This document shows positions 7,210 through 48,572 of a stretch of 54,072 bases of DNA, in pieces. Location: the NCBI GenBank assembly GCA_001603845.1, contig LUZZ01000012.1, forward strand, positions 1 through 54,072. The letters run 5' to 3'. Below the pieces are notes generated by a model. It had not been told where the DNA came from. It worked only from the letters and a program-made list of their open reading frames with translations, and searched no databases. Numbering within the stretch: the first letter of the stretch is position 1; the number at the start of each line of letters is the position of its first letter. The translations under genes were made by a program, and so were the position numbers. Origin of the DNA: Syntrophobacterales bacterium Delta_01. Lineage in GTDB: Bacteria; Desulfobacterota; Syntrophobacteria; Syntrophobacterales; Syntrophobacteraceae.

Positions 7210-7218
7210 CCGGACACC

Positions 7219-8542: not shown

Positions 8543-8558
8543 CGAAACGGATACCATC

Positions 8559-11762: not shown

Positions 11763-11919
11763 TTAGGGGAGGGTGTCGTATTTCCGGGCACTGACGACCC
11801 CCTCCCCCATCCCCTCCCACCAAGGGAGGGGAGTAGTCGTGTGGGGTGGGCACGGTTTTACCGTGCCCACCCCTACATCCAGCTCTTTGTTCTCTGTGGT
11901 GGAATCTCGGGGGTATGCA

Positions 11920-25047: not shown

Positions 25048-25087
25048 AAGCGCGGGATATCGCACTGAAAGGGAGTTTTAACGCAAT

Positions 25088-28509: not shown

Positions 28510-28511
28510 TA

Positions 28512-29585: not shown

Positions 29586-30423
29586 GTCCAAACCCGTTGT
29601 CAACCCCTACCTGCCCGAGGTGGCTACCATCCTGGAAACGATCCAGGAAACGCCCACCATAAAGACTTTCCGGGTACGGTTCGATGACGAAAGCGCCATG
29701 GCCGCATTCAGCTTCATCCCCGGCCAGGTGGGCCAGTTATCCGTTTTCGGGGTGGGAGAGTCCACTTTCGTCATCAATTCGCCTCCCACCCGCATGGAAT
29801 GCCTCCAGTTCAGCGTCATGCGCGCCGGCGAAGTGACCACCCGGCTGCACGGGCTTTCCGCGGGCGACAAGATCGGCGTGCGCGCCCCCCTGGGAAACGG
29901 GTTTCCCTACGAGAGCATGAAAGGCAAAAACATCGTGTTCATAGGAGGCGGAATCGGCATGGCCCCGCTGCGCACGCTGCTCCTGTTCATGCTCGACAAC
30001 CGCTCCGACTACGGCGACATCACCCTGCTCTACGGCGCCCGCACGCCGGCGGACATGGCCTTCAAGGCCGAACTGCCCGAATGGCTTTCCAATGCCGGCA
30101 TGTCCACCACCCTTACCATCGATACCGCGTCGCCCGGCTGGGAACACAAGGTGGGGCTGATTCCGAACGTGCTCAAGGATCTGCACCCCAGCCCGGAAAA
30201 TGCCGTGGCCGTGACCTGCGGACCGCCCATCATGATCAAATTCACCCTGATGGCGCTCCAGGAGATCGGCTTCAAAGACGACCAGATCCTCACCACGCTG
30301 GAAAGACGCATGAAGTGCGGCGTGGGCATCTGCGGGCGGTGCAACATCGGCACCAGCTACGTCTGCGTGGACGGGCCCGTGTACTACAACTCGCAGCTCA
30401 AGGCCCTGCCCGCCGAGCTTTGA
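29578..30423 (+). CDS. FAD/NAD(P)-binding oxidoreductase with C-terminal 2Fe-2S (FlxA/PyrK/AsrB-like)
   Basis: 281 aa. FNR-like fold motifs (FIPGQ, GGGIGMAPL) and C-terminal CGVGICGRC...C. Confidence 0.75.
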   Translation: MAKSKPVVNPYLPEVATILETIQETPTIKTFRVRFDDESAMAAFSFIPGQVGQLSVFGVGESTFVINSPPTRMECLQFSVMRAGEVTTRLHGLSAGDKIGVRAPLGNGFPYESMKGKNIVFIGGGIGMAPLRTLLLFMLDNRSDYGDITLLYGARTPADMAFKAELPEWLSNAGMSTTLTIDTASPGWEHKVGLIPNVLKDLHPSPENAVAVTCGPPIMIKFTLMALQEIGFKDDQILTTLERRMKCGVGICGRCNIGTSYVCVDGPVYYNSQLKALPAEL

Positions 30424-31118: not shown

Positions 31119-31745
31119 ATGCGGAACAAAAATTTGCGCAGCCGGGATTCTGAAGCGACTCGATGCGCCGCACTGGATGCCGCCCAGCGCCTGTTTGCCG
31201 AAAAAGGCTTCGCCGGGGTCTCCATGCGGGAGATCGCCTCCGTTTCCGGCATCTCGCAATCCCTCATCTATTATCACTTCGGGAACAAGGAAGGCCTGTA
31301 CAGCGCGGTCAAGGAACGGTTGATGCAAGAAGGGCTGCGCTCGGTCCTGCCCCTCCCCCCCGACGGCTCGCCGGACGCTCCCGCACATCCTGCCGTATGC
31401 ATTCGCACCGCGTACAATCTAATCTCGGGCAACGAAGACCTGACGCGGCTGATTGCCTGGTCGCACCTGGAAAGGGAAGAAACTCCGTGGCCCGGAGAAG
31501 AAGAGTTCACCCGCAAAATGGCCGGGCATATTCAGTGTCACCTGGCCGGTATCCAGTCCGGCAAGAATTTCGATCCCCTGGTCTCCACTATAATGATCGA
31601 AGCGCTGATCCTTTTTTGGAGCCAATACAGCCGCTACTACGCCGCCCTTTTCAAGGAGCCTCTGGCAACCATCACCGACCGTTACCTGGACCAGATTGCC
31701 GATTTGTTTTTTTCAGGCATCCACGCTCAAAAGACTGAGGAGTAA
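31119..31745 (+). CDS. TetR/AcrR-family transcriptional regulator
   Basis: N-terminal HTH: ILDAAQRLFAEKGFAGVSMREIASVSGISQSLIYYHFGNKEGLY. Confidence 0.9.
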   Translation: MRNKNLRSRDSEATRCAALDAAQRLFAEKGFAGVSMREIASVSGISQSLIYYHFGNKEGLYSAVKERLMQEGLRSVLPLPPDGSPDAPAHPAVCIRTAYNLISGNEDLTRLIAWSHLEREETPWPGEEEFTRKMAGHIQCHLAGIQSGKNFDPLVSTIMIEALILFWSQYSRYYAALFKEPLATITDRYLDQIADLFFSGIHAQKTEE

Positions 31746-31751
31746 GAGAAT

Positions 31752-33893
31752 ATGTCGTCCCGAGGCTTGCCCCATGGCCCCGCTCCCAACAATGATGAGA
31801 CTTCCGAGGCGACTTCGATTGCCGGGCCGCTTTTTCCGGGCGGGGCCGGCGCCGTTCCGTCCTCTCTGGACGAATGTATCCGGCGGGGTACCGCATGGCT
31901 GCTGGAAAAACAGGAGCCGGGCGGGTTTTGGGCCGGAAGGCTCCAGTCCAACTCCTGCATGGAGGCGGAGTGGCTCCTGGCGATGCACTTCCTGGGGGTA
32001 GGCGGTTCCCCGAGACACGAAAAAGTCGTACGGAGCATTCTCAACGAACAGAGGGAAGACGGCTCCTGGGACGTTTACCACGGGGCCCCGTGCGGGGACA
32101 TCAATACGACCGTGGAGTGTTATGCAGCGCTGCGGGCCTGCGGGCTGGAAAAGGAGAGCGCCGCCCTGCGCCGGGCCGGGACGTGGATTCTGGACAACGG
32201 GGAGCTCGCCGGGATTCGGAACTTCACCAAGTACTGGCTGGCGCTCATAGGCGAGTGGCCCTGGGAGCAGACCCCCGCGCTTCCGCCGGAACAGATTTTC
32301 CTGCCGACGTGGCTCCCGCTGAGCATTTACCGGTTCGCCTCCTGGGCGCGGGGCACGATCGTGCCGCTTTCCATCCTCTCGGCGCGGCGGCCGGTGCGTC
32401 CGCTGCCGGAAGGCCGCAGGCTCGACGAACTGTTCCCCGGCGGGCGTTCGAACTTCGATTTCAAGCTGCCTCTCATGCAGGGGCGGGCATCGTGGGAGAG
32501 GTGTTTTTACCTCATCGACCGCGTTCTTCACCGCTACCGGGACCTGGGCGTCACTCCCGCGCGCGAAACGGCCATCAGAGCCTGCATCGAGTGGATCATC
32601 CGGCGCCAGGAACCGGACGGCACGTGGTGCGGCATCCAGCCCCCCTGGATCTATTCCCTGCTGGCGCTCCATACCGAAGGCTTCGGACTGGACCATCCCG
32701 TCATAAAAAGCAGCCTCGCCGCATTCGACAGCCACTGGTTCTGCGAGCACGACGGCGGCTGCTATCTCCAGGCAAGCGAATCCCCGATCTGGGACACCAT
32801 TCTTTCCCTGCGGGCCCTTCTGGATTGCGGGCTGGACGTCCGGGACCGTCCTTCACTGCAGCAGGCCTTGGAATGGCTCCTGGGAAAGCAGATCCACACC
32901 AGGGGGGACTGGGCGGTGAGGGCCCCCGGCACGAATGGGGGCGGCTGGGCGTTCCAGCACTATAACGGATACTATCCCGACGTTGACGATACCGCGGTCA
33001 TCGTGGCCGTTCTGGCCGGGCTGCGCGCCTCGGCGCCGGACCCCGGAGAAATCGACCGCGCCATCGAATGCGCCGTTGAGTGGATCCTGTCCATGCAATG
33101 CTCCAACGGCGGCTGGGCGGCATTCGACAGGGATAACAACGAAAAATTGGTGACCAAGATACCTTTTTGCGATTTCGGCGAACTGCTCGATCCGCCCAGC
33201 GTGGACGTCACCGCCCATGTCGTCGAAGCCCTGGCCGTGCTGAGCTATGATGCGGCCCACCCCGCGATGGCAAAAGCCCTGGCCTATATCCACGGGGAAC
33301 AGGAATCGGACGGCAGTTGGTTCGGGCGGTGGGGAGTGAACCACATCTACGGCACGGCCGCCGTCCTCCCCGCCCTTCAGGCCACCGGAGAGGACATGAA
33401 AAAACCCTATGTCCGCCGCGCCGCCGAGTGGCTCGCCGGCCGCCAGAACGGCGACGGAGGCTGGGGCGAATCGCCGGCTTCCTACGTGGACAAATCCCTT
33501 CGCGGAGTCGGACCGAGCACGGCCTCCCAGACCGCGTGGGCCGTCATGGCGCTGCTGGCCCTCGGCACGCACGAATTCGACCTCAACATAAGCAAAGGGG
33601 TGGACTACCTGGTGGCGACCCAAAAGAACGGCACCTGGGAGGAACCTTTCTACACGGGCACGGGATTTCCGGGATACGGCACCGGCCAGCGGCTGGAAAA
33701 CGGGGACCGCGGAGGCGCTCAAGGCCTCGAAATGCAGCGCGCCTTCATGCTCAACTACACGCTCTACCGGCACTACTTCCCGCTCATGGCCCTGGGCCGG
33801 GCCGAAAGGCATCTCCAGGCCGGCCGCCAACTCCCGAAGGCGGAACCCGCCCGCAAAACCGGCTCGAAGAGAAAAGGCCGGGCCTCCGCTTGA
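31752..33893 (+). CDS. shc: squalene-hopene cyclase
   Basis: 713 aa. Catalytic DVDDTAV motif and multiple QW repeats (Q..DGSW/GGW). Confidence 0.92.
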   Translation: MSSRGLPHGPAPNNDETSEATSIAGPLFPGGAGAVPSSLDECIRRGTAWLLEKQEPGGFWAGRLQSNSCMEAEWLLAMHFLGVGGSPRHEKVVRSILNEQREDGSWDVYHGAPCGDINTTVECYAALRACGLEKESAALRRAGTWILDNGELAGIRNFTKYWLALIGEWPWEQTPALPPEQIFLPTWLPLSIYRFASWARGTIVPLSILSARRPVRPLPEGRRLDELFPGGRSNFDFKLPLMQGRASWERCFYLIDRVLHRYRDLGVTPARETAIRACIEWIIRRQEPDGTWCGIQPPWIYSLLALHTEGFGLDHPVIKSSLAAFDSHWFCEHDGGCYLQASESPIWDTILSLRALLDCGLDVRDRPSLQQALEWLLGKQIHTRGDWAVRAPGTNGGGWAFQHYNGYYPDVDDTAVIVAVLAGLRASAPDPGEIDRAIECAVEWILSMQCSNGGWAAFDRDNNEKLVTKIPFCDFGELLDPPSVDVTAHVVEALAVLSYDAAHPAMAKALAYIHGEQESDGSWFGRWGVNHIYGTAAVLPALQATGEDMKKPYVRRAAEWLAGRQNGDGGWGESPASYVDKSLRGVGPSTASQTAWAVMALLALGTHEFDLNISKGVDYLVATQKNGTWEEPFYTGTGFPGYGTGQRLENGDRGGAQGLEMQRAFMLNYTLYRHYFPLMALGRAERHLQAGRQLPKAEPARKTGSKRKGRASA

Positions 33894-34351: not shown

Positions 34352-34657
34352 TCACGAAGGTATGCGGGATTCTATTTTCGCCAGCCTCTCTTCGATGCTC
34401 CGGAGGGAATCGGTCTCCAGTTGCGGACGGGAACTCGTGGCGAACATCGAGTGGTTCGTCCACCAATCCATGCCCATTTCCTTTGCCCTGTCCACCGAGC
34501 AAACCACCAGCCGAATCTGGAGGGTGAGCAATTCCACATCCACGAGCTTGATCTTGATGTCGCCGGCAATGACGATGCCTTTGTCCAATACGCGTTCGAG
34601 CAGGTCAGCGAGGTTCGTGCTCTCGATGGAGTGCCGTGCAGTCCGCTGAACAGCCAT
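34352..34657 (-). CDS. gvpJ: gas vesicle protein GvpJ (GvpA/J family)
   Basis: LADLLERVLDKGIVIAGDIKIKLVDVELLTLQIRLVVCSVDRAKEMGMDWW. Confidence 0.9.
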   Translation of the reverse strand: MAVQRTARHSIESTNLADLLERVLDKGIVIAGDIKIKLVDVELLTLQIRLVVCSVDRAKEMGMDWWTNHSMFATSSRPQLETDSLRSIEERLAKIESRIPS

Positions 34658-34669
34658 GTTGCACCCTCC

Positions 34670-35059
34670 TCAGAGTAGTTTTCCAAGAGGTCCGAGGTCG
34701 AGATTGAGGTCTTCTTCGTCCAGGCCGAATTCCCTTCGGAGCCTGTCGATCTCCCGGGCCTGCATCATAAGGGTCAACCCGACCCTCTCGATTTCAGCGT
34801 CGGAGAGGCTGCCGGCGTCGATGCGCCGTATCGCCTGCCGTTCGAGGAGCTCGTGGAGGAGCTTGACCAGCGTCAGTACGAGCCTTCCAAGGCCGTTTTT
34901 AACGTTTTCCTGATTGAGATTCAGCCTTCCGGGAAGAGCGTCCGGGGTCTCGGTACCATCAGGGCAAAGGCTGCATGGGGAAGCGTCTCCGGCCTGCATT
35001 ATCCTGGCGAAATCTTTCAAATCGGCGGAGTCCACCCTCTCTCTGTCAACCCTGTTCAT
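34670..35059 (-). CDS. gvpK: gas vesicle protein GvpK
   Basis: GLGRLVLTLVKLLHELLERQAIRRIDAGSLSDAEIERVG...FGLDEEDLNLDLGPLGKLL closely follows the GvpK pattern. Confidence 0.92.
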   Translation of the reverse strand: MNRVDRERVDSADLKDFARIMQAGDASPCSLCPDGTETPDALPGRLNLNQENVKNGLGRLVLTLVKLLHELLERQAIRRIDAGSLSDAEIERVGLTLMMQAREIDRLRREFGLDEEDLNLDLGPLGKLL

Positions 35060-35270
35060 CGGCAGGCTCCATTCCCGATCCGGAGGAATCGATCATTCCC
35101 CTGGCAGTCTCGACGGAGGAGAGCACGACCTGCAGCCCCAGGTAAAGGAGATCGATGTCCGCCACCGAGATCCTGACTTCTCCGATCAGCACGGCCCCCT
35201 TATTGAGGATGCGGTCAAGCACTTCACAGAGCGTAACCTGTTCCGCGTCGACCGAAGAAAACTCCCTCAT
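35046..35270 (-). CDS. GvpS/GvpM-like gas vesicle protein (GvpA/J family)
   Basis: 74 aa from ATG 35270. VTLCEVLDRILNKGAVLIGEVRISVADIDLLYLGLQVVLSSVETAR. 14-nt overlap with gvpK. Confidence 0.85.
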   Translation of the reverse strand: MREFSSVDAEQVTLCEVLDRILNKGAVLIGEVRISVADIDLLYLGLQVVLSSVETARGMIDSSGSGMEPADEQG

Positions 35271-35317: not shown

Positions 35318-37249
35318 TCACTTGACGGCCTCGGCCGATGTCCCGTAAAGGGCGTTTCCAAGGCTGCGAAGCGGCCGAAGCCCGTAAAGCCTCCCCTGGC
35401 GATACACAATCACCTGCTCCTTGTCGCAAAAAGACCTTCCGAACTTTTCCCGGATCAGCATTTCACCGCGGTTCAGGACCGAGCATACGGAGCAGTCGTT
35501 CCGCGATGCGGCCATATTCAGGAACAAAAGGGGAAGATGAATTCCCATCTTCGAGCAGGCACGGACCAGGTCGGCGGTCTCCTGGAAGGCCATCTCCGTG
35601 AGGATGGCCACGGCCACCAGGGCAGAGCGGCCGGGATCGGCCAGGATCGATTTCATGTGCTTGAGTTCCTGCGATATCTTCACGAGCCGCCGGGAGATTC
35701 CGGGCAGGCGGAACACCGCCCTGTACTTCAGGAACAGTCCAAAAAAGACTTTGAGCCACTGGTCGATGAGTTCAGGGAGTTCGAGCAGCCTGATGAGGTG
35801 GCCGGTTGGAGCGGAATCGATGACGACGATGTCGTATTTCCCCTCCGCCAAAGCTCCCATGACCCCGGTGAGCGCGATGACCTCATCGGTGCCGGGCGGT
35901 GAGAGGTCGAAAATCCTATCCATCACCTCGTGGTCGAAAGCCAGTTCGAAGTCGGGCAAAGCCGATTTAAGGAATCGCTCGCAGTCCGTTCTGTATTGCA
36001 TCTTCAGGGAGTCGAACTCCGCCCGGGCGTCGATTTCCACTGCGGTGAGCCGAGGAGATACCCGTACAGGGAGAGGTCCCACCTCGATTCCCAGGCAGGC
36101 CGACAGAGAATGGGCGGGATCGACGGAAACGAGGAAGACTTTCCTGGCGCCTTGGTCCTCCGCCAGGTGCAGGGCCGTTGCGCATGCGAGCGTGGTCTTG
36201 CCCGTTCCGCCCTTTCCGGCAAAAAGCAAGAGTTCCTTTGCATGCAGCGCGGTCCTTACCCCTTCCACGTGAACCGGCGCTTCATGGCAGGTACCGCAGG
36301 AGATCGGCGTCACCCTGGAAATTTTCGTCACCCCCGTCCAGAACGAGTAAAGGTTTTCCCCGCCGGGGGCCTCGGGCGCATGGAAGGGCATTCCCCAAAG
36401 GACACACCCGGAAAAAGCGTCCGAACTTGCAATTGCGTTGAGGTTTTCACTCTGCAGGGCGTAAATGTTCGAACACAGCGGGCAGGAGCCCGGAGACCGG
36501 AGCTTGTTGACCACGATATCGGCAACCGGCGCTCCCAAGCCGTGGAGACGCTCCACCAATGCCGTCGTCTCGCTGATGCTCAATTCCTCGGCGAGCATGA
36601 CCGGCACGAAACACGAACGAACCGGGTCCCGGAGCAGGGTGTGTACCCGGTTGACCCTCTCGGACAGTTCCATGAGGAACCGGTCAAGCTCGTCCGGGCG
36701 GTAGGAACCGCTGAATGCCCTTTTCATGTAACGGTGTTTGGCCAGGAGCGCATCCAATGCCTTAAGCCACCCGCGGAGCAAATCGGGCATTTCCAGGAGC
36801 CGTATCGTGTGCCCGGTCGGCGCGGTATCCACGATGATGCGGTCATGGCCGGAATCGTCCACCCACCGGGAGATTTCGAGTAGCGCCGTGAGTTCATCCA
36901 TGCCCGGAAGGGAAAGGTCCAGGAAGCCGTTGATGTCTTCTTCGTCCAGGAACGTGCCGCGCAACGCAATCTCCCGGAGTTTGCGGCTGTGCTCGGCCTG
37001 GAATGCCGCCAGGCATTTTCGTGCATCCAGCTCCATGATCTCCAGGTTGGCGGGAAGATGGGCGTCGGCGAGGCTGTCGGTCAACGAGTGAGCGGGATCG
37101 GTGGAAAGGAGCAGGAAGGATTTCCCCGGAGAACCCACCGCCGAATGAAGGGCCGTCGCCGCGGCACAGGTGGTCTTCCCGACTCCGCCCTTCCCCCCGA
37201 AAAGCAACAGGCGCAGACCGGAATCCTGCAGAAAGGAGGGCTCGGTCAC
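35318..37249 (-). CDS. fused tandem ArsA/Get3(TRC40)-family P-loop ATPase (pseudo-dimer) embedded in the gvp operon
   Basis: Two modules, each with GKGG(V/T)GKTT, DPAHS, D(T/S)APTGH.IRLL and a downstream CxxC (CPLC, CSVC). The GTG start overlaps the gvpG stop (GTGA). Confidence 0.85.
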   Translation of the reverse strand: MTEPSFLQDSGLRLLLFGGKGGVGKTTCAAATALHSAVGSPGKSFLLLSTDPAHSLTDSLADAHLPANLEIMELDARKCLAAFQAEHSRKLREIALRGTFLDEEDINGFLDLSLPGMDELTALLEISRWVDDSGHDRIIVDTAPTGHTIRLLEMPDLLRGWLKALDALLAKHRYMKRAFSGSYRPDELDRFLMELSERVNRVHTLLRDPVRSCFVPVMLAEELSISETTALVERLHGLGAPVADIVVNKLRSPGSCPLCSNIYALQSENLNAIASSDAFSGCVLWGMPFHAPEAPGGENLYSFWTGVTKISRVTPISCGTCHEAPVHVEGVRTALHAKELLLFAGKGGTGKTTLACATALHLAEDQGARKVFLVSVDPAHSLSACLGIEVGPLPVRVSPRLTAVEIDARAEFDSLKMQYRTDCERFLKSALPDFELAFDHEVMDRIFDLSPPGTDEVIALTGVMGALAEGKYDIVVIDSAPTGHLIRLLELPELIDQWLKVFFGLFLKYRAVFRLPGISRRLVKISQELKHMKSILADPGRSALVAVAILTEMAFQETADLVRACSKMGIHLPLLFLNMAASRNDCSVCSVLNRGEMLIREKFGRSFCDKEQVIVYRQGRLYGLRPLRSLGNALYGTSAEAVK

Positions 37250-37506
37250 TCCCGTTCCCCCTCATCGCGGGCACGGACCGGCCGTCCTTCTATTTCGTCC
37301 AGGCGATCGAGAAGGTCTTTTTCCAGGATATCGAATTGATCGCTCGTGATTTTCTCCGTCTCCAGCATCATGTAAAGCTCACTGAGCCGCGCGATGATAT
37401 TTTCGGTTTCGGATGCCAATTCCTGGCGGGCGGCGTTGTGCAGTTCGCGGAAAATCCAAAGGATGCTTGAGACCGGAAAAAGCAGGACGTCATCGACGAT
37501 AAACAT
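37246..37506 (-). CDS. gvpG: gas vesicle protein GvpG
   Basis: 86 aa from ATG 37506. MFIVDDVLLFPVSSILWIFRELHNAA...LSELYMMLETEKITSDQFDILEKDLLDRL matches the GvpG pattern. Confidence 0.85.
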   Translation of the reverse strand: MFIVDDVLLFPVSSILWIFRELHNAARQELASETENIIARLSELYMMLETEKITSDQFDILEKDLLDRLDEIEGRPVRARDEGERE

Positions 37507-38320
37507 TCCGTGTTCCCCCTCGGTTCGGCAGGCCTTTCCGGGACGCCGTCGCGAGCGGCGGCGGACGGAAGTCTCGTTTTCCCCCGGCACGGGGGCTGAG
37601 CCGGATATCGACAAAGTTGTGGGGCGCCCAGGGGCCGTTGTAGTCGAACGCAAAGCTGTTATCGAAAAGCTTTGCCGCGTCGAACACGCGCTGCTCGAAC
37701 TCCGGCAGTTTCCCTCGCTCTACCAGGCAGGCCACGTTCATCACTTCGCGCTCGTTTCTCGGGCTGTTCCGTTTGGTTTCGGCGCAACACGCCGCGAGCA
37801 CAGTCTCGACGTTATCGGCGTGGACCTCCCGGTCTGCAGTGAGGATTCGCTCAAAAACACGCCCGATTTCGATCTTGTCCGCCCTGGTCGGTTCGCTCCG
37901 GCTGCCGAAAAAGCGGTCGCGCACGGCACGCAGCTCGGAATGGGTAAGAACGAAGTACTCGAAAATGTCCGGCACGTCCCACGTTACACGGAGCCCCATT
38001 TCCACCTTGTCCGCAACGCGCTGCAGTTGCTCGCAAAAGGCGGTCCGGTTGCGCGAGAGGATTTTTTGAACCGCCGCGGGGCCGTCCGCAACGATGCCGA
38101 AGCTCATGGGCAAGGGCGTGGATTCAGCCATGAGTTTGCCGAGGACTTCCTGGTGGGCCGCCAGGTTGCGGCGTTCGGGGCGGATTTCCATCTCCGATAC
38201 GTCGCTGACCACGGCCGCGATCACGCCGTCGGAGATCGTATAGACACTGCCGCCGCCGATGCCGAACGGGCCGTAGGTCCGCTCACCGGCACTTATGACG
38301 GCATAAAGATATCTTCCCAT
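37490..38320 (-). CDS. GvpF/GvpL-family gas vesicle protein (paralogue 1)
   Basis: GRYLYAVISAGE...GVIAAVVSDV...RRNLAAHQEVL...FDYNGPWAPHNF. The start is 38320 or 38344. Overlaps the gvpG start by 17 nt. Confidence 0.88.
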   Translation of the reverse strand: MGRYLYAVISAGERTYGPFGIGGGSVYTISDGVIAAVVSDVSEMEIRPERRNLAAHQEVLGKLMAESTPLPMSFGIVADGPAAVQKILSRNRTAFCEQLQRVADKVEMGLRVTWDVPDIFEYFVLTHSELRAVRDRFFGSRSEPTRADKIEIGRVFERILTADREVHADNVETVLAACCAETKRNSPRNEREVMNVACLVERGKLPEFEQRVFDAAKLFDNSFAFDYNGPWAPHNFVDIRLSPRAGGKRDFRPPPLATASRKGLPNRGGTRNVYRR

Positions 38321-38375
38321 GCTTCCTGTCTTTCTTCCCGCCATGTCTACAGCATCCTTTCAGCAGGCCCGGGCG

Positions 38376-38576
38376 CTACGGCTGGTCGGAGGTCCCCTTG
38401 TCGGCAGGAGGGGCCTCAAGCCTTTGATACAAGTGAAGGGATTTCAGTTTGCCCTGCTCCATCCTGATCTCCAGGAGCCTGCCGCATACGTAGCACTTTG
38501 CCTGCCCTTCGTAATCGGCATACACCTCTTCATCGAGTTCCAGCTTGTGGCCACACGAAAGACAGTTGATCTTCAT
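38376..38576 (-). CDS. zinc-ribbon miniprotein (unknown function)
   Basis: 66 aa with two CxxC pairs (CLSCG ... CYVCG). The ATG overlaps the stop of the upstream ORF (ATGA). Confidence 0.6.
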   Translation of the reverse strand: MKINCLSCGHKLELDEEVYADYEGQAKCYVCGRLLEIRMEQGKLKSLHLYQRLEAPPADKGTSDQP

Positions 38577-38916: not shown

Positions 38917-39243
38917 TCAATATTTGAGCCTGAAGCCCGCCGTCTCGTTTTGGGCCGGCCGGGTTCCGGACTCTCCGGCCTGCGGGACGAAGGGGTTCAC
39001 GCTCCTATCTTCCCTAACAACTTCCAGAATGGCCGCCATTTCGATTTCAATGTCCAGGAGGCGAGCGTCTATGTTCTTTACCCGGCTCATTGCGCTTTCC
39101 CTTTCTTTCGTGCGCCGGAACTTTTCCATTTCGAGGGAACACAGCCTCATGAACGCTTTGTATGGGAGGATCGCCTCTTGTGGCCTCCCCGAGTGGGAGC
39201 GAATGTCTTGCAGGCCTTTTACGGGCCTTACAGGAATGGGCAT
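38917..39243 (-). CDS. hypothetical 108-aa protein directly downstream of gvpN
   Basis: AAGGAGGAAG sits between the gvpN stop (39257) and ATG 39243. Charged helical core LEMEKFRRTKERESAMSRVKNIDARLLDIEIEMAAI. Confidence 0.6.
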   Translation of the reverse strand: MPIPVRPVKGLQDIRSHSGRPQEAILPYKAFMRLCSLEMEKFRRTKERESAMSRVKNIDARLLDIEIEMAAILEVVREDRSVNPFVPQAGESGTRPAQNETAGFRLKY

Positions 39244-39256: not shown

Positions 39257-40306
39257 CTATTGCTTTTGCGCCGCCGCCTGTGGATGCCTCGCGCCCCCTC
39301 CGGGACGCTGCCCGCAAACCTTCTCGATGATTTCATCGACCTTTTGCAGCATGATGGACTGACCGTCGCGCGTAACCTTGGCGGTATCCGTGGTGAGAAC
39401 GTCGCGGCAAACCCACCGGAACACGGGATTGTCCGCCTGCGCCCTGTCGCCGCGGAGTGCAAGGACCCTGGCGACCACGATACAGGCCCGGATGGTGGGA
39501 CGGTGGTTGTTTACGCCCAGGGAGCGCAACTCTCTCACGATGTCCACGATGGTTGCGGCATCCGTTCGCGGGATGTTCGATTTGGCCGTCACAATCTGGA
39601 TTTCGGTCTCGCGATCGTAATGCTCCAGGTTGATGGTGATGAGCCTGTCCAAGAGGGCGTCCTGTGTCTTGTGCACCCCGGCGTACTCTTCCGGGTTGGA
39701 GGTAAAGATCGCCGTGAAGTCGGGATGAACCTCGAGATATCCCTCCCCTGATCTTCGCAGTTTCGGCAAGTTCAGGATGCGTTCCGAGAGCACGCTGAGA
39801 AAAGCGTTGTTTGCCTCGGGCCTCGAACGGTTGAACTCGTCGTAGATCAGCGTATCGCCGTTCTGGCAGGCCATGGTGAGCCGGTTGTCCACCCAGAAGC
39901 TCTTCATCTCCTCTTCCGTTTTCAAAACAGAGTGGATGAAATTGTCTATCAATTTCGACTTGCGGTAGCCGGCATCGCGCCCCACAAGATCGGAGCTTCC
40001 AAACTCATCGTCGCCGTGAATGAGGGTGACCGGCCGGCCGAGCTGGGCTGCGACGTGGAATGCCAGCGTGGTCTTCCCCGTTCCCGCGGGGCCCGAAAAA
40101 TGGACCGGGTAGCCCGCCGCGATGTAGGCCAGCGCACGCTCCGTCACGTGTTGCACGTACGGGGTGGAGACGAAGCCTTCGCCGGCCTCCGGCAGGATGA
40201 TGTCTCCTTCGGGCTGAACTCTTATCGTTTCGGCGGACAGGACTCTGAGGTTTTCTTTTTGCATCTTCCCATTGCTCCATTCGCGCGATTCGGGTTGCGT
40301 TTCCAT
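39257..40306 (-). CDS. gvpN: gas vesicle protein GvpN (MoxR-like AAA+ ATPase)
   Basis: 349 aa from ATG 40306. Walker A HFSGPAGTGKTT, Walker B LIYDEFNR. GvpN-typical length and context. Confidence 0.92.
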   Translation of the reverse strand: METQPESREWSNGKMQKENLRVLSAETIRVQPEGDIILPEAGEGFVSTPYVQHVTERALAYIAAGYPVHFSGPAGTGKTTLAFHVAAQLGRPVTLIHGDDEFGSSDLVGRDAGYRKSKLIDNFIHSVLKTEEEMKSFWVDNRLTMACQNGDTLIYDEFNRSRPEANNAFLSVLSERILNLPKLRRSGEGYLEVHPDFTAIFTSNPEEYAGVHKTQDALLDRLITINLEHYDRETEIQIVTAKSNIPRTDAATIVDIVRELRSLGVNNHRPTIRACIVVARVLALRGDRAQADNPVFRWVCRDVLTTDTAKVTRDGQSIMLQKVDEIIEKVCGQRPGGGARHPQAAAQKQ

Positions 40307-40644
40307 TACAAAGGCACCCATCCACGGCCCCGGCAGCGCAGGCATGCCATGGCGGAAGCCGAGCGGTCGTCGCCGCTCCCCCCACATTCCGGGCATCTCC
40401 GGACAGGACCGGCGGGCGCGGGCACAAACCCCTTGCCCCCGCAAACGGTGCAGGTGAGGGTCTTGACGGCCCCGGTGCCCCTGCAGTGGGCACACCGCAC
40501 GGAACCTTCCCGTACGGAGACGACCTTCCTTCCCCCGCAAACGCAGCAGGTGGATCGCCAGGACATGATGCCGAAGGGGTCCCTCCCGCTGCCGCCGCAG
40601 AAGGAGCACGAAACTCGAACGGTTCCTGTGCGCTCGTCCGCCAT
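40306..40644 (-). CDS. stand-alone DnaJ-CR-type zinc-finger protein (6 x CxxCxGxG)
   Basis: CSFCGGSG, CCVCGGRK, CAHCRGTG, CTVCGGKG, CPECGGSG and CLRCRGRG within 112 aa. The TAA stop overlaps the gvpN ATG (TAATG). Confidence 0.8.
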   Translation of the reverse strand: MADERTGTVRVSCSFCGGSGRDPFGIMSWRSTCCVCGGRKVVSVREGSVRCAHCRGTGAVKTLTCTVCGGKGFVPAPAGPVRRCPECGGSGDDRSASAMACLRCRGRGWVPL

Positions 40645-40691
40645 TCCATCCCCCCGTGGCCGTTGCCCGCTCGGATCGCCTTCGTGCCTGC

Positions 40692-41714
40692 TCAGTGAGA
40701 AAGCTTACCCTTTTTGGAGGGCTTCTTTTCCTCCCTGGCCTGGCTTTGTTCGGACGGAACAATCGCCTGGACGGGTTCCTGCACGGCCTGAGGTTCTACC
40801 TTTTGTTCAGCTTGGGGCTCCCCCTTCTGTTCAACTTGAGGCTCGACCTTTTGCTCAACTTGAGGTTCCACCTTCTGCTCGGCCTTACGCTCCGCATCAA
40901 ACCCTGCCTGCCACTCCGATTCCCGGCGATTTTGCTCCGTATCGGCCATCTCCCGTGGTTCGGCTTTTTGCAGGGGCAAAGAGCTGGGAGGCGTCGTACC
41001 CAACCACGCCCGGCGGGCGCCCGCAACTTCCGAGGCGAATTCCTGCCGCATGTCGGTCACCACTTTTTTCATTCCGGTTACAAAGGCCGCGCGGTCCGTC
41101 CTGGCTTTTTCGATCATGCTCCCGTAAGCCAGGCGCTGGTCCGCAAGTTCCCCGTGACAGCGGGTCTTCATTGCCGAAACGGCACCTTTTATGCCGGAGA
41201 TGAAGTTCAGGCGGCTTCTTCGGGAGCTTTTCGCCATTTGGGCGTTAGTATTCCTGACGTCTTTACGCATCCCGGCGACATTGGCTTTCAGATCGGAAAG
41301 AAACGCCAGCCGGTTTGCCCGGTCGCTTTTCGCCCCCTTTTGAAGCGAACGGCGAAAACCCGCCTGCATGCCCGATACCTCGGCCTTGAGGCCGGATACA
41401 AAAGCCGCTCTCTCCCGTTTGGTTTCCATGGACATTCTTGCGTGCGCGTCACGGATGGATGCAAGCTCCCCCCGAGACTCGGCCTTCAGCAGGGACACCG
41501 CGGTACCGATGCCGGCCAGAAACGCCAGCCGGTCGTTCCTGGTTGGCTTCGCCATCCGGGTATGAGCATTGTGAAACTCCTTCGCCATCGCCGCTACCGC
41601 CTCTCTGCGCTCCTTGGCGGAGCGGACGATATCATTCGAAAGTTCCCGGCGCGCTCCCCGCAAGCCGTTGATTTCACTGCGCAGGCGGGCCATGTCGTCT
41701 GTCAACATCCCCAT
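40692..41714 (-). CDS. GvpC-like repeat protein (putative outer-surface gas vesicle protein)
   Basis: 340 aa immediately after gvpA. Five R..R(L/A)(A/N)F(L/V/I).G(I/L/M)K..V..M units spaced 40/33/33/40 aa. Acidic/Pro-rich repetitive tail. Confidence 0.65.
   Translation of the reverse strand: MGMLTDDMARLRSEINGLRGARRELSNDIVRSAKERREAVAAMAKEFHNAHTRMAKPTRNDRLAFLAGIGTAVSLLKAESRGELASIRDAHARMSMETKRERAAFVSGLKAEVSGMQAGFRRSLQKGAKSDRANRLAFLSDLKANVAGMRKDVRNTNAQMAKSSRRSRLNFISGIKGAVSAMKTRCHGELADQRLAYGSMIEKARTDRAAFVTGMKKVVTDMRQEFASEVAGARRAWLGTTPPSSLPLQKAEPREMADTEQNRRESEWQAGFDAERKAEQKVEPQVEQKVEPQVEQKGEPQAEQKVEPQAVQEPVQAIVPSEQSQAREEKKPSKKGKLSH
40788..40883 (-). repeat. 4 x 24-nt imperfect in-frame tandem repeat encoding (K/A)(V/G)EPQ(V/A)EQ units
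   Basis: Units at 40788-40811, 40812-40835, 40836-40859 and 40860-40883. Confidence 0.85.
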
Positions 41715-41826: not shown

Positions 41827-42045
41827 TTAGGCTGGTGCAGCGGCGCTGGCCGTCAGACCAATGGCTTCAGCGTACTTCAAGTAGGTTTCGACCGAGGCGA
41901 TCACGACGCGGGCCTCAATGGACAGGAGTTCGATCCCGACCAAAGAAACCTTCGCCCAGGCATCGATCACGATGCCCTTGTCCAAAATGCGATCCACCAC
42001 TTCCGCCAGACTCGATGAATCTGTGGATTTCTGAACTTTTGCCAT
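41827..42045 (-). CDS. gvpA: major gas vesicle structural protein GvpA
   Basis: 72 aa. [55 protein letters not shown] is near-canonical GvpA. AAGGAGG lies 8 nt before the ATG. Confidence 0.97.
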
Positions 42046-42301: not shown

Positions 42302-42685
42302 TCAGGCGCCATTGAGGGTTTCCATGATCCCCAGCACCTCGTCATTTTGAAAAGGTTTACTCATAAAGCCGCTGATCAGGCCGGATTCGAGGGCTTTCTG
42401 CACGCTCGCATCGTCTTTGTAAAAGTACCCCGAAATCATTACGATGCACGTTCCGGGGTGCAACAGGCGAATCTGTTTTGCCAGATCGAGCCCTTCCATA
42501 TCCGGCAGCTTGGCATCCAGGAAGACGAGGGGGAAACCGCTCGACACCATCAAATCAAGGGCCTCCCGGGCCGTGAGGGCAACCAGTGCATCGAAGCCCT
42601 TTTTCGTCAGTACATGATGCAGCACCCAGCACATGTCCGGCTCATCATCCACTATGAGAGACGTCGTCTTTCCGGGACTCATCAT
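42302..42685 (-). CDS. stand-alone response-regulator receiver (CheY-like)
   Basis: 127 aa. LIVDDEPDM...VFLDAKLPDMEGL...VMISGY...KPF receiver motifs. No output domain. Confidence 0.88.
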   Translation of the reverse strand: MMSPGKTTSLIVDDEPDMCWVLHHVLTKKGFDALVALTAREALDLMVSSGFPLVFLDAKLPDMEGLDLAKQIRLLHPGTCIVMISGYFYKDDASVQKALESGLISGFMSKPFQNDEVLGIMETLNGA

Positions 42686-42696
42686 CCATTACCTTT

Positions 42697-48029: not shown

Positions 48030-48035
48030 CCGCGT

Positions 48036-48572
48036 TCAGTGTTTCCCGCATTTGATTTCCACGATCCCGTGCTTGCAGGAGACCGAAATCTGGTCTTTTC
48101 GAAACGTGCCCGGAAGGAGTATCTCCTTGCGGTATTTCTTGTTTCCCCTCTGGGCCGAGAGAGTCAGAACATCGTCCACGAGGTCCAGTTGAACGTCTTC
48201 GGCCTCGATTCCGGGCATCTCCGCGACGATCAGCACGTGGTCCTCCTCTTCGAAAACATCCACCAGCGGTTCCCGGATCTCACGGACCACGGACTTGCCC
48301 GTCGCTTTGTCCTTGCCGATATTGCCGAAGGGCCGGACTTCGACTTCCTCCCCGCCAAGACCCACCTTGACGGAAAACCCGAAAATTCCCTTCCCCTCCT
48401 TCTTGCCGCCCTCCCATTGAAACTCGCCGCTCTTGGAGAGCTGCTCTCCTTTTTCAGCCAGATCGCTCAGCCTTTCCACAAGGTCGCTCAAGCCCCTGAA
48501 GATCCCTTCAATGCCTCCGCCGGCTTCTTCACCCTTTTTCGTACGTTTACCTTTCGTCATCTGTGTCTCCAC
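48036..48572 (-). CDS. Hsp20/alpha-crystallin family protein (GvpH-like position)
   Basis: 178 aa. C-terminal ACD: VDVFEEEDHVLIVAEMPGIEAEDVQLDLVDDVLTLSA...GIVEI. Confidence 0.85.
   Translation of the reverse strand: METQMTKGKRTKKGEEAGGGIEGIFRGLSDLVERLSDLAEKGEQLSKSGEFQWEGGKKEGKGIFGFSVKVGLGGEEVEVRPFGNIGKDKATGKSVVREIREPLVDVFEEEDHVLIVAEMPGIEAEDVQLDLVDDVLTLSAQRGNKKYRKEILLPGTFRKDQISVSCKHGIVEIKCGKH

What the first reader, a model, noticed from the sequence alone, without database searches (positions are those of the whole stretch)
35318..37249. Fused tandem Get3/ArsA-type ATPase with Get3-like CxxC motifs as an integral member of the gvp structural operon
The 643-aa ORF consists of two tandem P-loop modules. 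Half 1 reads LLLFGGKGGVGKTT...STDPAHS...DTAPTGHTIRLL and half 2 reads LLLFAGKGGTGKTT...SVDPAHS...DSAPTGHLIRLL. Each half has a CxxC about 110 aa after the signature (VVNKLRSPGSCPLC..., LNMAASRNDCSVC...). This is the same position and context as the zinc-binding CxxC at the Get3 dimer interface (yeast ...NQLL...CKRC...). I could not align the metalloid-binding cysteines of plasmid ArsA by eye, and there is no arsR/B/C/D in the window. The GTG start overlaps the gvpG stop (GTGA, 37246-37249), and a gvpS-like gene follows 47 nt later, so the gene is translationally coupled inside the structural operon. From memory, it sits roughly where Serratia has gvpW. Get3 shields and delivers very hydrophobic segments and can act as a holdase, and GvpA-family proteins are extremely hydrophobic. 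Hypothesis: a pseudo-dimeric Get3-like chaperone or targeting ATPase for GvpA/J/S subunits. I know of no described gvp accessory of this family.
Basis: partly seen in the sequence, partly recalled or inferred. Interest (0 to 1): 0.8.

Follow-up and report, generated by a model that had tools for sequence, protein, structure and literature searches.

The report
Get3-like tandem ATPase in gas-vesicle operon
A two-domain ATPase of the Get3/ArsA family sits in the middle of a gas-vesicle operon and probably helps handle the very hydrophobic shell proteins rather than pumping arsenite, but the operon link (2010) and this protein class (2019) were both already published, and its function has never been tested.

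Summary
ORF 35318-37249(-) encodes a 643-aa protein with two ArsA/Get3 ATPase modules. Its GTG start overlaps the gvpG stop, and a GvpA-family gene follows 47 nt later.

- **Not an arsenite pump.** It scores 166 against the 650-bit ArsA cutoff, has Gly at the ArsA C113/C422 positions, and the window has no ars genes.
- **Get3-like CxxC.** Both CxxC motifs align with the archaeal Get3 CxxC and are invariant in 120/120 close homologues. Across 125 diverse representatives they are kept together (87) or lost together (30), which fits one shared four-cysteine site.
- **gvp linkage.** All 27 related genome loci carry gvp genes, and 8 of 10 distant representatives (down to 31% identity) sit in an F-G-(O)-ATPase-GvpA-like-K context.

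The novelty claim fails. Castillo & Saier (2010) described two-domain ArsA homologues in gvp operons of four phyla. Farkas et al. (2019) described bacterial tandem Get3 homologues with CxxC and did not know their function. I found no paper that joins the two or tests the function.

A chaperone or delivery role for hydrophobic Gvp proteins is the best reading, but it is inferred. The protein cannot be universally required, because gas vesicles form without it in other systems. Verdict: a new member of a known, uncharacterised kind; moderate interest.

The parts
35318..37249 (-). Tandem Get3/ArsA-family ATPase gene (643 aa, GTG start)
   Evidence: ORF and translation. Pfam ArsA_ATPase x2, E=1e-104. 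NCBIfam TIGR00345 345 bits; ArsA equivalog fails, 166 vs 650. AF2 pLDDT 82.9, pTM 0.82.
37246..37249 (-). GTGA overlap of the ATPase start codon with the gvpG stop codon
   Evidence: Sequence read directly. The same 4-nt overlap appears in distant loci L029 and L030.
37256..37263 (-). Shine-Dalgarno-like GAGGGGGA inside the 3' end of gvpG, 6 nt before the GTG
   Evidence: Sequence. Its function is inferred.
37172..37195 (-). P-loop 1, GKGGVGKT (res 19-26)
   Evidence: Translation. G19, K20, G21, G22, G24, K25 and T26 are invariant in 73 homologues.
37085..37105 (-). Switch I of half 1, STDPAHS (res 49-55)
   Evidence: S49, D51, P52, A53 and S55 are invariant.
36806..36829 (-). Switch II / family signature of half 1, DTAPTGHT (res 141-148)
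   Evidence: D141, T142, A143, P144, G146 and H147 are invariant.
36473..36484 (-). CxxC-1 (C256-P-L-C259) at the N-terminus of helix 257-275
   Evidence: Codons TGC CCG CTG TGT read. 120/120 conserved. Aligns with CEFC of 3zq6 and CDFC of 3ug6.
36245..36337 (-). Inter-domain linker (about res 305-335), low pLDDT, with a non-conserved CxxC (C318/C321)
   Evidence: pLDDT blocks of 57-71. Columns 318 and 321 are variable.
36194..36217 (-). P-loop 2, GKGGTGKT (res 345-352)
   Evidence: G345, K346, G347, G348, G350, K351 and T352 are invariant.
36107..36127 (-). Switch I of half 2, SVDPAHS (res 375-381), followed by invariant C385
35795..35818 (-). Switch II of half 2, DSAPTGHL (res 478-485), followed by a conserved hydrophobic helix (WLKVFFGLFLKY)
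35483..35494 (-). CxxC-2 (C586-S-V-C589) at the N-terminus of helix 587-606
   Evidence: Codons TGC TCC GTA TGC read. 120/120 conserved. Aligns with the archaeal Get3 CxxC and with CxxC-1.
37246..37506 (-). gvpG (86 aa), immediately upstream and overlapping
   Evidence: Pfam GvpG 49.9 bits. A GvpG hit lies directly upstream in 22 of 26 testable loci.
35046..35270 (-). GvpA-family gene in the gvpS position (74 aa), 47 nt downstream
   Evidence: Pfam Gas_vesicle 58.5 bits. Found directly downstream in 19 of 21 testable loci.
34670..35059 (-). gvpK
   Evidence: Pfam GvpK 111 bits.
34352..34657 (-). GvpA-family gene in the gvpJ position (101 aa); last gene of the operon
   Evidence: Pfam Gas_vesicle 62.3 bits.
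37490..38344 (-). gvpF/L
   Evidence: Pfam GvpL_GvpF 218 bits.
39257..40306 (-). gvpN (AAA+); the likely start is ATG 40306, not the TTG at 40762 listed by the ORF finder
   Evidence: Pfam AAA_5. Start position reasoned (homologue is 337 aa).
41827..42045 (-). gvpA (72 aa), the major shell protein
   Evidence: Pfam Gas_vesicle 61.4 bits. 97-100% identical to GvpA in most related loci, lowest about 91%.

Best explanation
The gene encodes a dedicated gas-vesicle accessory ATPase of the Get3/ArsA (SIMIBI) family. It is one polypeptide whose two ATPase halves fold into a Get3-like pseudo-dimer. Both nucleotide sites look intact, and the two CxxC motifs, one per half, most likely form one shared Zn(Cys)4 hinge, as in the Get3 homodimer.

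It is co-transcribed and probably co-translated with gvpG and the GvpA-family gene in the gvpS position.

The most likely mechanism is inferred, not shown. In the ATP-bound closed state, the helical subdomains shield an exposed hydrophobic segment of a gas-vesicle protein. Candidate clients are the gas-facing alpha1-beta1-beta2 region of the GvpS/J/A proteins or the hydrophobic N-terminal helix of GvpG. ATP hydrolysis would then release the client at the nascent or growing vesicle. In this picture it is one of several chaperone-type modules in the cluster (Hsp20, Cdc48-type AAA+, a DnaJ-type zinc finger, GvpN).

It is not an arsenite-pump subunit.

- Shown: family, architecture, motif conservation, operon membership, and conserved synteny across phyla.
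- Inferred: zinc binding, client identity, and the direction of action.

The confidence of 0.45 refers to the chaperone/delivery mechanism. Confidence that this is a gvp-dedicated Get3/ArsA-family ATPase and not an arsenite pump is about 0.95.
For: **Family and architecture**
- Family assignment and ArsA exclusion.
- Both CxxC motifs align with the archaeal Get3 CxxC.
- ArsA C113 and C422 are replaced by Gly in P-G-(M/T)-D-E, and C172 has no counterpart.
- The AF2 model has pTM 0.82. It matches closed tandem ArsA 9nbo/9nbw at TM 0.68-0.78, and single halves match Get3, including client-bound 4xwo and 4xtr, at TMt up to 0.82.

**CxxC behaviour**
- Invariant in 120/120 close homologues.
- Among 125 full-length 50%-identity cluster representatives: 87 have both motifs, 30 have neither, and only 8 have one. 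Fisher p = 3e-20, not corrected for phylogeny.
- Double loss appears in several separate tree positions. This is what one joint site predicts.

**Operon linkage**
- 27/27 genome loci from many phyla carry gvp genes around the gene.
- 8 of 10 sampled distant representatives (31-57% identity) lie next to GvpG, and seven of those show a wider F-G-(O)-ATPase-GvpA-like-K context.
- The same start/stop overlap with gvpG is seen at 41% identity.

**Chaperone context**
- This window carries Hsp20, Cdc48-AAA and a DnaJ-type zinc finger.
- Distant ATPase-containing clusters carry J-domain-GvpF/L fusions and an Hsp70.

**Literature**
- Get3 CxxC/Zn hinge and holdase role: PMC10248533, PMC6593721.
- GvpA-family proteins are hydrophobic, aggregation-prone and thought to need chaperoning: PMC11445434.
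- Castillo & Saier proposed an energising role in gas-vesicle biogenesis.
Against: - There is no experimental or structural evidence for any client. No complex modelling was possible.
- A simple hydrophobicity and methionine count of the post-switch-II region does not separate this protein from E. coli ArsA or archaeal Get3. The 'groove' is therefore untested.
- The region equivalent to the TRC40 insert is shorter than in archaeal Get3: 61 and 54 residues against 68-70, with ArsA at 47.
- The CxxC is dispensable in about a quarter of the family, including gvp-linked members P0146 and P0152.
- Gas vesicles form without any such ATPase elsewhere. From established knowledge, the B. megaterium, Serratia and Halobacterium clusters lack it.
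- A. flos-aquae gvpA plus gvpNJKFGWV suffices in mammalian cells (PMC10344784). The ten listed Anabaena 7120 gvp genes give (irregular) vesicles in E. coli (PMC7204071).
- GvpF and GvpG are already proposed as the GvpA chaperones.
- Two sampled tandem relatives, P0261 (Thermostichus) and P0240, are not gvp-linked. The fold itself is not gas-vesicle specific.
Confidence: 0.45

Rival explanations
1. It is an ATP-driven assembly switch or scaffold rather than a hydrophobic-client chaperone. Nucleotide-dependent closing of the pseudo-dimer would recruit, order or release soluble assembly factors (GvpF/L, GvpG, GvpK, GvpN). Alternatively it would nucleate or position vesicles, as other SIMIBI ATPases (MinD/ParA-type) do for other structures.
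For: - It belongs to the SIMIBI class and has two intact nucleotide sites.
- It has weaker hits to the ParA, CbiA and MinD families.
- Strongly conserved charged and aromatic motifs follow switch II in both halves (WLxALDxLLAKHRYM and WLKVFFGLFLKY). These look more specific than a generic greasy groove.
- Tight coupling to gvpG suggests a protein partner.
- Castillo & Saier proposed only that it 'energises a biogenic step'.
Against: - Its closest sequence and fold relatives are Get3 and ArsA, not ParA or MinD.
- I identified no amphipathic membrane-targeting helix or DNA-binding feature.
- The cluster context is rich in chaperones.
Confidence: 0.22
2. It is a general Get3-type factor for tail-anchored or other membrane proteins of the cell, and it merely travels with the gvp cluster.
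For: - Farkas et al. considered a tail-anchored-protein role for tandem bacterial Get3 homologues. They noted that genomes carrying them have more predicted tail-anchored proteins.
- Two tandem relatives are not gvp-linked.
Against: - The gene keeps the same slot between gvpG (or gvpO) and a GvpA-family gene down to 31% identity, across bacterial phyla and a probable archaeon.
- Start and stop codons overlap on both sides in several loci. This is hard to reconcile with a housekeeping role.
- No Get1/2-like receptor gene is evident.
Confidence: 0.08
3. It is a redox- or stress-switched, ATP-independent holdase. Oxidation of the four cysteines would release zinc and convert the protein into a general chaperone, as described for yeast Get3 and TRC40.
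For: - The two invariant CxxC motifs are kept or lost together.
- Further conserved cysteines are present: C28, C356, C385 and C565.
- The literature describes a redox switch in Get3 (titles and abstracts listed).
Against: - Most hosts appear to be anaerobes (Syntrophales, Geobacter, Anaerolineae, spirochaetes).
- Both ATP sites are strictly conserved.
- Cysteine-less members remain gvp-linked.
Confidence: 0.07
4. It is a genuine arsenite/antimonite-stimulated ArsA pump subunit, as most database annotations say.
For: - Source annotations read 'arsenite-transporting ATPase'.
- The top Foldseek hits are ArsA structures.
- The DTAPTGHT signature is shared with ArsA.
Against: - It fails the ArsA equivalog model: 166 bits against a cutoff of 650.
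- C113, C172 and C422 are absent.
- There are no arsB/acr3/arsD/arsR/arsC genes in the window or in the Pfam-annotated loci around homologues.
- Castillo & Saier reached the same conclusion.
Confidence: 0.02

Closest known systems
Two-domain ArsA homologues encoded in gvp operons (Castillo & Saier 2010, phylogenetic clusters 4 and 6; e.g. Geobacter uraniireducens Rf4, Pelodictyon luteolum, Polaribacter irgensii, Anabaena/Nostoc)
   Same: - About 640 aa with two ArsA domains.
- Embedded among gvpN/F/L/G/J/K and hsp20.
- No ars genes or arsR nearby, and the ArsA metalloid cysteines are missing.
- Function unknown, with a proposed role in energising biogenesis.
- This window shows all of these features.
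   Different: - This is a new sequence, at most 60% identical to anything in the databases searched.
- That paper made no connection to Get3, the CxxC or chaperoning.
- I did not place this protein in their tree.
Bacterial tandem Get3 homologues with CxxC and TRC40 insert in both domains (Farkas, De Laurentiis & Schwappach 2019)
   Same: - Two domains in tandem, each with a CxxC.
- Found in Proteobacteria, while the cyanobacterial versions lack the CxxC. This matches the keep-both-or-lose-both pattern seen here.
- Function stated to be unknown.
   Different: - That review did not notice the gas-vesicle gene context.
- It discussed tail-anchored protein targeting or general chaperoning instead.
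- Here the insert-equivalent regions are shorter than in archaeal Get3.
Archaeal Get3/TRC40 (M. thermautotrophicus 3zq6, M. jannaschii 3ug6) and yeast Get3
   Same: - Best single-domain sequence matches, E about 1e-36 for half 1.
- P-loop, switch I, switch II and the C-terminal region holding the Get3 A-loop all align, and so do the CxxC motifs.
- Structural TMt up to 0.82.
   Different: - Those proteins are single-domain homodimers (or a tetramer) that deliver tail-anchored proteins to a lipid membrane through Get1/2-type receptors.
- Here the two halves are fused, no receptor is known, and the target organelle has a protein shell without lipid.
E. coli R773 / Leptospirillum ferriphilum ArsA (arsenite pump ATPase)
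   Same: Fused pseudo-dimer architecture, two nucleotide sites and the DTAPTGHT signature. These give the best whole-chain structural match (TMq 0.68-0.70 to closed 9nbo/9nbw).
   Different: - Only 22-23% identity.
- No metalloid-binding cysteines, and no ArsB/Acr3/ArsD partner.
- It has the Get3-type CxxC, which ArsA lacks.
Chlamydomonas reinhardtii ArsA1 (5zme), a fused Get3 for chloroplast tail-anchored proteins
   Same: It is the best PDB sequence hit (E = 3e-45) and a tandem Get3-like protein acting as a targeting factor rather than a pump.
   Different: - It is eukaryotic.
- HMMER's local alignments to 5zme end before the CxxC positions of either half.
- Structural superposition is poorer (rmsd 16 A, open form).

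Membership tests
ArsA arsenical pump-driving ATPase | Scores above the curated equivalog threshold (NCBIfam TIGR04291 / NF041417) | tested here: not met
   TIGR04291 scores 166 bits against a cutoff of 650. NF041417 scores 232 against 800.
ArsA arsenical pump-driving ATPase | Metalloid-binding cysteines (E. coli C113, C172, C422) | tested here: not met
   In the HMMER alignment to 1f48, C422 aligns with Gly of SPPGTDE, C113 has no Cys counterpart, and the C172 region aligns with RAVFRLPG. Half 1 has the equivalent LPGMDE.
ArsA arsenical pump-driving ATPase | Genomic association with arsB/acr3, arsD, arsR or arsC | tested here: not met
   No ars gene among the ~45 window ORFs scanned with Pfam, nor in the Pfam-annotated loci around homologues.
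ArsA arsenical pump-driving ATPase | Two homologous ATPase halves in one chain with the DTAPTGHT signature | tested here: met
   This feature is shared with other family members and is not diagnostic.
Get3/TRC40/ArsA superfamily (TIGR00345) | Deviant Walker A GKGGVGKT, switch I (S/T)DPAHS with the catalytic Asp, switch II DTAPTGH | tested here: met
   Present in both halves and invariant across 73 homologues. TIGR00345 scores 345 bits against a cutoff of 135.
Get3/TRC40 (tail-anchored protein targeting factor) | CxxC at the dimer interface that coordinates one Zn per dimer | tested here: inconclusive
   - By sequence this is met. Both CxxC motifs align with the CxxC of 3zq6 and 3ug6. They are invariant in 120/120 homologues and are kept or lost together.
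- Zinc binding and Cys geometry could not be tested, because no model coordinates are returned.
Get3/TRC40 (tail-anchored protein targeting factor) | Hydrophobic, often Met-rich client groove with a TRC40 insert (helix 8 lid) | tested here: inconclusive
   - Amphipathic helices with conserved hydrophobic positions are present.
- Composition does not separate this protein from ArsA.
- The region is 54-61 residues, against 68-70 in archaeal Get3 and 47 in ArsA.
- Farkas et al. score this class as insert-containing.
Get3/TRC40 (tail-anchored protein targeting factor) | A-loop for adenine recognition near the C-terminus of each domain | tested here: inconclusive
   - Half 1 (GMPFHAPEAPGGENL; family consensus VPLYPxEVRG, with E293 invariant) aligns with VPLLKKEAKGIETL of 3zq6.
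- Half 2 (RQGRLYGLRPL) aligns with the same region.
- That this stretch is the A-loop rests on my own knowledge of Get3, not on a tool annotation.
Get3/TRC40 (tail-anchored protein targeting factor) | Works with membrane receptors (Get1/2, WRB/CAML) and pre-targeting factors (Get4/5), and binds C-terminal transmembrane segments | not testable with these tools
   No homologues of these partners were seen in the cluster (Pfam). Client binding needs experiments.
gvp-operon two-domain ArsA homologues (Castillo & Saier 2010) | About 600-690 aa, two domains, encoded inside a gvp cluster with gvpN/F/L/G/J/K (often hsp20) and no ars genes | tested here: met
   (this window). (27/27 loci). (distant representatives).
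Bacterial tandem Get3 homologues with CxxC (Farkas et al. 2019) | Two Get3-like domains in tandem, each carrying a CxxC | tested here: met
   Definition taken.

The most novel reading that the evidence does not exclude
This would be a bacterial and archaeal GET-like delivery pathway that targets a lipid-free protein organelle instead of a membrane. The fused, Zn-hinged Get3-like ATPase would capture the gas-facing hydrophobic hairpin of GvpS/J/A-type shell proteins as they leave the ribosome. It would then hand them to the nascent vesicle. The adjacent, translationally coupled GvpG, with a hydrophobic N-terminal helix followed by a predicted coiled-coil-like tail, would act as the vesicle-bound receptor, analogous to Get1. 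That would extend the Get3 client and target repertoire beyond tail-anchored membrane proteins. It might also explain why many gvp clusters fail in heterologous hosts.
Probability: 0.25. Interest if true: 0.75.

Novelty: new member of a known kind. Interest (0 to 1): 0.38.

Why it matters
How extremely hydrophobic GvpA-family proteins are kept soluble and inserted into a growing gas vesicle is an open problem. It also limits the engineering of acoustic reporter genes: in PMC10344784 only 5 of 15 tested constructs gave detectable vesicles in E. coli.

A widespread, syntenically fixed Get3-like ATPase in one large class of gvp clusters is a concrete and easily testable candidate for that step. 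Databases almost always label it 'arsenite-transporting ATPase', and at least one genome paper counted it as an arsenic gene.

The gas-vesicle literature and the Get3 literature each describe one side of this protein, and I found no paper that connects them. However, the existence of the gene class, its gvp linkage and its CxxC/tandem architecture are all published, so the finding itself is not a discovery.

Tried and rejected
1. **Zn-site geometry and groove.** I tried to measure these on the AF2 model, but the tool returns no coordinates and none appear in /data. Not testable here.
2. **Composition of the client-binding region.** I compared hydrophobic fraction, Met count and aromatic count of the post-switch-II region with archaeal Get3, CrArsA1 and EcArsA. 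The measures do not discriminate, so I dropped them as evidence.
3. **Third CxxC in the linker (C318/C321).** I considered it as part of a metal site. It is not conserved, so I rejected it.
4. **Arsenic function.** Rejected on model thresholds, the missing cysteines and the gene context.
5. **Experimental literature.** I searched for experimental work on gvp-linked ArsA/Get3 proteins. No paper holds both 'gas vesicle' and 'Get3'. I found only bioinformatic mentions.
6. **Foldseek as a discriminator.** The full-chain top hits are ArsA simply because those PDB entries are also tandem chains. I did not treat this as evidence of ArsA function.
7. **Universality of the gvp linkage.** I asked whether every tandem relative is gvp-linked. 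It is not: P0261 (Thermostichus) and P0240 are not.
8. **Scans not run.** I did not run a metagenome-contig scan or a second homologue search. The 27 genome loci plus 10 sampled representatives already answered the context question.


Full report
**1. The observation**

ORF 35318-37249 on the minus strand is the first-start-to-stop ORF of 643 aa. The sequence shows the GTG start sharing GTGA (37246-37249) with the TGA stop of the upstream gene. A GAGGGGGA run lies 6 nt upstream. The next same-strand ATG is at 35270, 47 nt after the stop.

Pfam finds two ArsA_ATPase domains (E = 1e-104). It identifies the neighbours as follows:
- GvpG (37246-37506)
- a GvpA-family protein (35046-35270)
- GvpK (34670-35059)
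- a second GvpA-family protein (34352-34657)
- GvpF/L (37490-38344)
- GvpN (AAA_5)
- GvpA (41827-42045)

Further upstream on the same strand lie a response regulator, a PAS histidine kinase, two more GvpF/L genes, a Cdc48-type double AAA+ ATPase, an Hsp20 and a sigma-54 response regulator.

The two halves are 34% identical, and the two CxxC motifs align with each other.

**2. Which family**

NCBIfam places the protein in the broad TRC40/GET3/ArsA subfamily (TIGR00345, 345 bits, cutoff 135). It fails the ArsA equivalog (166 vs 650) and the haloarchaeal ArsA model (232 vs 800).

Against PDB sequences, the best matches are Chlamydomonas ArsA1 (a fused Get3-type targeting factor), the archaeal Get3/TRC40 proteins 3zq6 and 3ug6, and then bacterial ArsA and eukaryotic Get3.

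In the printed alignments, C256-P-L-C259 lies on CEFC of 3zq6 and CDFC of 3ug6. C586-S-V-C589 lies on the same motifs.

Against E. coli ArsA (1f48), the position of C422 is Gly in SPPGTDE. C113 and C172 have no cysteine counterpart. Pfam scans of about 45 window ORFs, including 37 of the 40 picked by GC3, found no ars gene.

The protein is therefore not a member of the arsenite-pump family. By sequence it carries the Get3-type signature.

**3. Structure**

An AF2 model built on 73 homologues is confident (mean pLDDT 82.9, pTM 0.82). It shows two Rossmann-like cores, each with long helical insertions after switch I and switch II. The CxxC motifs sit at the N-termini of helices 257-275 and 587-606.

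Foldseek's best whole-chain matches are the closed ATP/arsenite form of L. ferriphilum ArsA (TMq 0.68-0.70), followed by CrArsA1 and E. coli ArsA. Each half matches Get3 structures, including client-bound ones, at TMt 0.72-0.82.

This supports a closed pseudo-dimer. It cannot separate 'ArsA-like' from 'Get3-like', because they share one fold. Coordinates are not returned, so the Zn(Cys)4 geometry and the groove surface could not be measured. A crude composition comparison of the client-binding region was uninformative.

**4. Conservation of the cysteines**

In 120 homologues of 52-60% identity, both CxxC motifs are invariant. The linker CxxC (318/321) is not conserved.

In a scan of 1.84 billion 50%-identity cluster representatives, 671 proteins match at E <= 1e-30, and the top 150 are mostly 600-700 aa tandem proteins.

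Of 125 full-length representatives, 87 have both CxxC motifs, 30 have neither and only 8 have one (Fisher p = 3e-20, not corrected for phylogeny). On a neighbour-joining tree the double losses form one large clade plus several scattered events.

Joint retention and joint loss is what a single site built from both halves predicts. It also shows that the site is dispensable in part of the family. This agrees with the literature statement that some functional Get3 proteins lack the CxxC.

**5. Genomic context elsewhere**

A scan of one genome per GTDB species returned 27 loci. They come from Syntrophales/Syntrophobacterales, Geobacter, Treponemataceae, Rectinemataceae, Anaerolinea, Victivallales, Verrucomicrobiae, Acidobacteria and others.

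tblastn with this window's Gvp proteins found gvp genes in all 27 loci. GvpG lies directly upstream in 22 of 26 testable loci, and the GvpS-position gene lies directly downstream in 19 of 21. The order is usually Cdc48 - F/L - F/L - (HK-RR) - A(A) - repeat protein - N - Zn-ribbon - F/L - G - ATPase - S - K - J.

That scan is biased toward close relatives, so I also sampled representatives across the family:

| Representative | Identity | CxxC | Context |
|---|---|---|---|
| P0014 | 57% | both | gvp cluster |
| P0146 | 41% | none | gvp cluster |
| P0152 | 41% | none | gvp cluster |
| P0160 | 40% | both | gvp cluster |
| P0186 | 40% | both | gvp cluster |
| P0218 | 38% | both | GvpG upstream (3-kb contig) |
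| P0278 | 35% | both | gvp cluster; probably archaeal, Arch_fla_DE nearby |
| P0248 | 31% | both | gvp cluster |
| P0261 (Thermostichus) | 36% | none | not gvp-linked |
| P0240 | 38% | both | not gvp-linked |

The eight gvp-linked representatives all lie next to GvpG, and seven of them show a wider F-G-(O)-ATPase-GvpA-like-K context. None of the sampled loci has ars genes. In L029 and L030 the ATPase start overlaps the gvpG stop, as it does here.

The refutation condition 'no enrichment near gvp, or linked to ars' is clearly not met.

**6. What is already published**

- Castillo & Saier 2010 (PMC2963123) reported that ArsA homologues of about 637 aa with two domains are encoded in gvp operons. 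They named Polaribacter, Pelodictyon, Geobacter uraniireducens, Anabaena/Nostoc and an acidobacterium. These genes have hsp20 nearby and no ars genes or arsR, and the proteins lack the ArsA cysteines. The authors proposed that the ATPase energises a biogenic step distinct from GvpN.
- A 2017 cyanobacterial pan-genome study put ArsA in the same co-evolving cluster as eight gvp genes.
- The Nodularia genome paper lists gvp genes nsp15380-15470 and, under arsenic genes, 'ArsA nsp15480', which is the adjacent locus tag.
- Independently, Farkas et al. 2019 (PMC6593721) described tandem Get3 homologues in Cyanobacteria, Myxococcales and other Proteobacteria, with a TRC40 insert in both domains. Except in cyanobacteria, these also carry the CxxC. 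The authors called this 'unique in all domains of life' and said the function was unclear. They made no mention of gas vesicles.
- No paper in the library contains both 'gas vesicle' and 'Get3'. I found no experimental study.

The step of joining the two literatures appears to be unpublished.

**7. Mechanism**

Shown:
- A Get3-type fused ATPase with two intact catalytic sites.
- Four co-varying cysteines.
- Fixed position and translational coupling inside a gvp operon.
- Spread together with that operon across phyla.

Inferred: it binds an exposed hydrophobic element of a Gvp protein in its ATP-closed state and releases it at the vesicle.

Supporting context:
- GvpA-family proteins are hydrophobic and aggregation-prone, and are believed to need escorting from the ribosome.
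- The clusters carrying this ATPase repeatedly recruit chaperone modules. This window has Hsp20, a Cdc48-type AAA+ and a DnaJ-type CxxCxGxG protein. Distant clusters have J-domain-GvpF/L fusions and an Hsp70.
- From established knowledge of the B. megaterium order (N-F-G-L-S-K-J) and the Serratia order (N-V-F1-G-W-A2-K), the ATPase occupies the variable slot between gvpG and the gvpS-type gene. I did not verify the Serratia order with the tools, because one search gives only the gene list.

Against:
- Vesicles form without such an ATPase in many systems, including A. flos-aquae gvpA + gvpNJKFGWV in human cells and the ten Anabaena 7120 gvp genes in E. coli.
- GvpF and GvpG are already the favoured GvpA chaperones.
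- Cysteine-less members exist in gvp clusters.

I put about 0.45 on the chaperone/delivery model. I put about 0.22 on a nucleotide-switch or scaffold role, and small weights on a housekeeping tail-anchored-protein factor, a redox holdase and a real ArsA.

**8. Verdict**

It is a new, roughly 55-60%-identity member of a gene class whose gvp linkage (2010) and tandem-CxxC architecture (2019) are both in the literature. Its function remains untested. Interest is moderate. The value lies in a sharpened, testable hypothesis and in flagging a systematic mis-annotation, not in discovery of a new kind of system.

Noticed in passing
window 40309-40644 (-): A 112-aa ORF is made almost entirely of CxxCxGxG repeats. 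It hits Pfam DnaJ_CXXCXGXG (34.3 bits, cutoff 32.7) and Anti-TRAP (35.5 bits, cutoff 32). Its stop overlaps the likely gvpN start. A protein with weak or faint hits to the same Pfam families sits downstream of gvpN in the distant cluster L036. It looks like a DnaJ-type zinc-finger chaperone module inside the gvp operon.
   Followed up: partly
window 39257-40762 (-): The 501-aa 'gvpN' ORF from the mechanical ORF list is over-extended. Homologues are about 337 aa, and an ATG at 40306 (METQPES..., 349 aa) directly abuts the zinc-finger ORF.
   Followed up: partly
window 38376-38576 (-): A 66-aa zinc-ribbon protein (two CxxC pairs; weak Pfam Zn_ribbon_4) lies between gvpN and gvpF/L. It is conserved in 22 of 27 related loci and duplicated in L009, L024 and L027. 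It occupies the slot where Serratia has gvpV.
   Followed up: partly
window 38920-39243 (-): A 108-aa ORF with no Pfam hit lies just downstream of gvpN. Loci L028, L029 and L036 have no-Pfam genes of 107-123 aa in the same slot. It may be an unnamed gvp accessory.
   Followed up: no
window 40692-41714 (-): A 340-aa low-complexity, repeat-like protein lies directly after gvpA and has no Pfam family. tblastn finds 30-45% identical segments after gvpA in 15 related loci. It is possibly a GvpC-like outer-shell protein.
   Followed up: no
window 42302-44175 (-) and 48547-49962 (-): A PAS histidine kinase and a single-domain response regulator are embedded between the gvpF/L pair and gvpA. A sigma-54 response-regulator activator lies upstream of hsp20. 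An HK-RR pair occupies the same slot in L028.
   Followed up: no
window 45891-48572 (-): A Cdc48-type double AAA+ ATPase (712 aa, with CDC48_N and CDC48_2) and an Hsp20 head the cluster. Cdc48 co-occurs with the ATPase in 9 of the 27 loci and in distant loci L029 and L030.
   Followed up: partly
window 36287-36298 (-), residues 318-321: A third CxxC (CGTC) lies in the inter-domain linker. It is specific to this sequence and not conserved in 120 homologues.
   Followed up: yes
L032 5584-6579; L037 4595-5638 and 10673-12427: Distant ATPase-containing gvp clusters encode GvpF/L proteins that also hit the DnaJ J-domain family, and L037 carries an Hsp70. gvp clusters seem to recruit general chaperone modules repeatedly.
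   Followed up: no
L022 1706-5939 versus 6977-11437; L023 634-4084 versus 7034-11923: - L022 has two inverted copies of the Zn-ribbon-F/L-G-ATPase-S-K-J block. One copy is broken into frameshifted fragments.
- L023 has two part-clusters: N-F/L-G-S-K-J without the ATPase, and A-N-F/L-ATPase without G.
   Followed up: no
L033 1310-3376 (P0261, Thermostichus/Synechococcus OS-type); L035 4056-5981 (P0240): These tandem ArsA/Get3-like relatives (36-38% identity) are not next to gvp genes. Their neighbours are DNA ligase and ClpX in one case, and a thioredoxin-like protein and MoxR in the other. The fold also has non-vesicle roles.
   Followed up: partly
Literature: PMC3610870 (Nodularia spumigena CCY9414): The gvp genes are nsp15380-15470. 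The adjacent locus tag nsp15480 is listed as one of three 'ArsA' arsenic-resistance genes. This is probably the gvp-linked homologue, mis-assigned by name.
   Followed up: partly
window 31119-33893 (+) and 23258-30423 (+): Just downstream of the gvp operon, on the opposite strand and converging on it, are a TetR regulator and a squalene-hopene cyclase. Further along are HdrA/MvhD/FlpD-type and CCG-domain redox genes, consistent with an anaerobic host. The closest locus is from a Syntrophobacteraceae MAG, with GvpA 100% identical.
   Followed up: no
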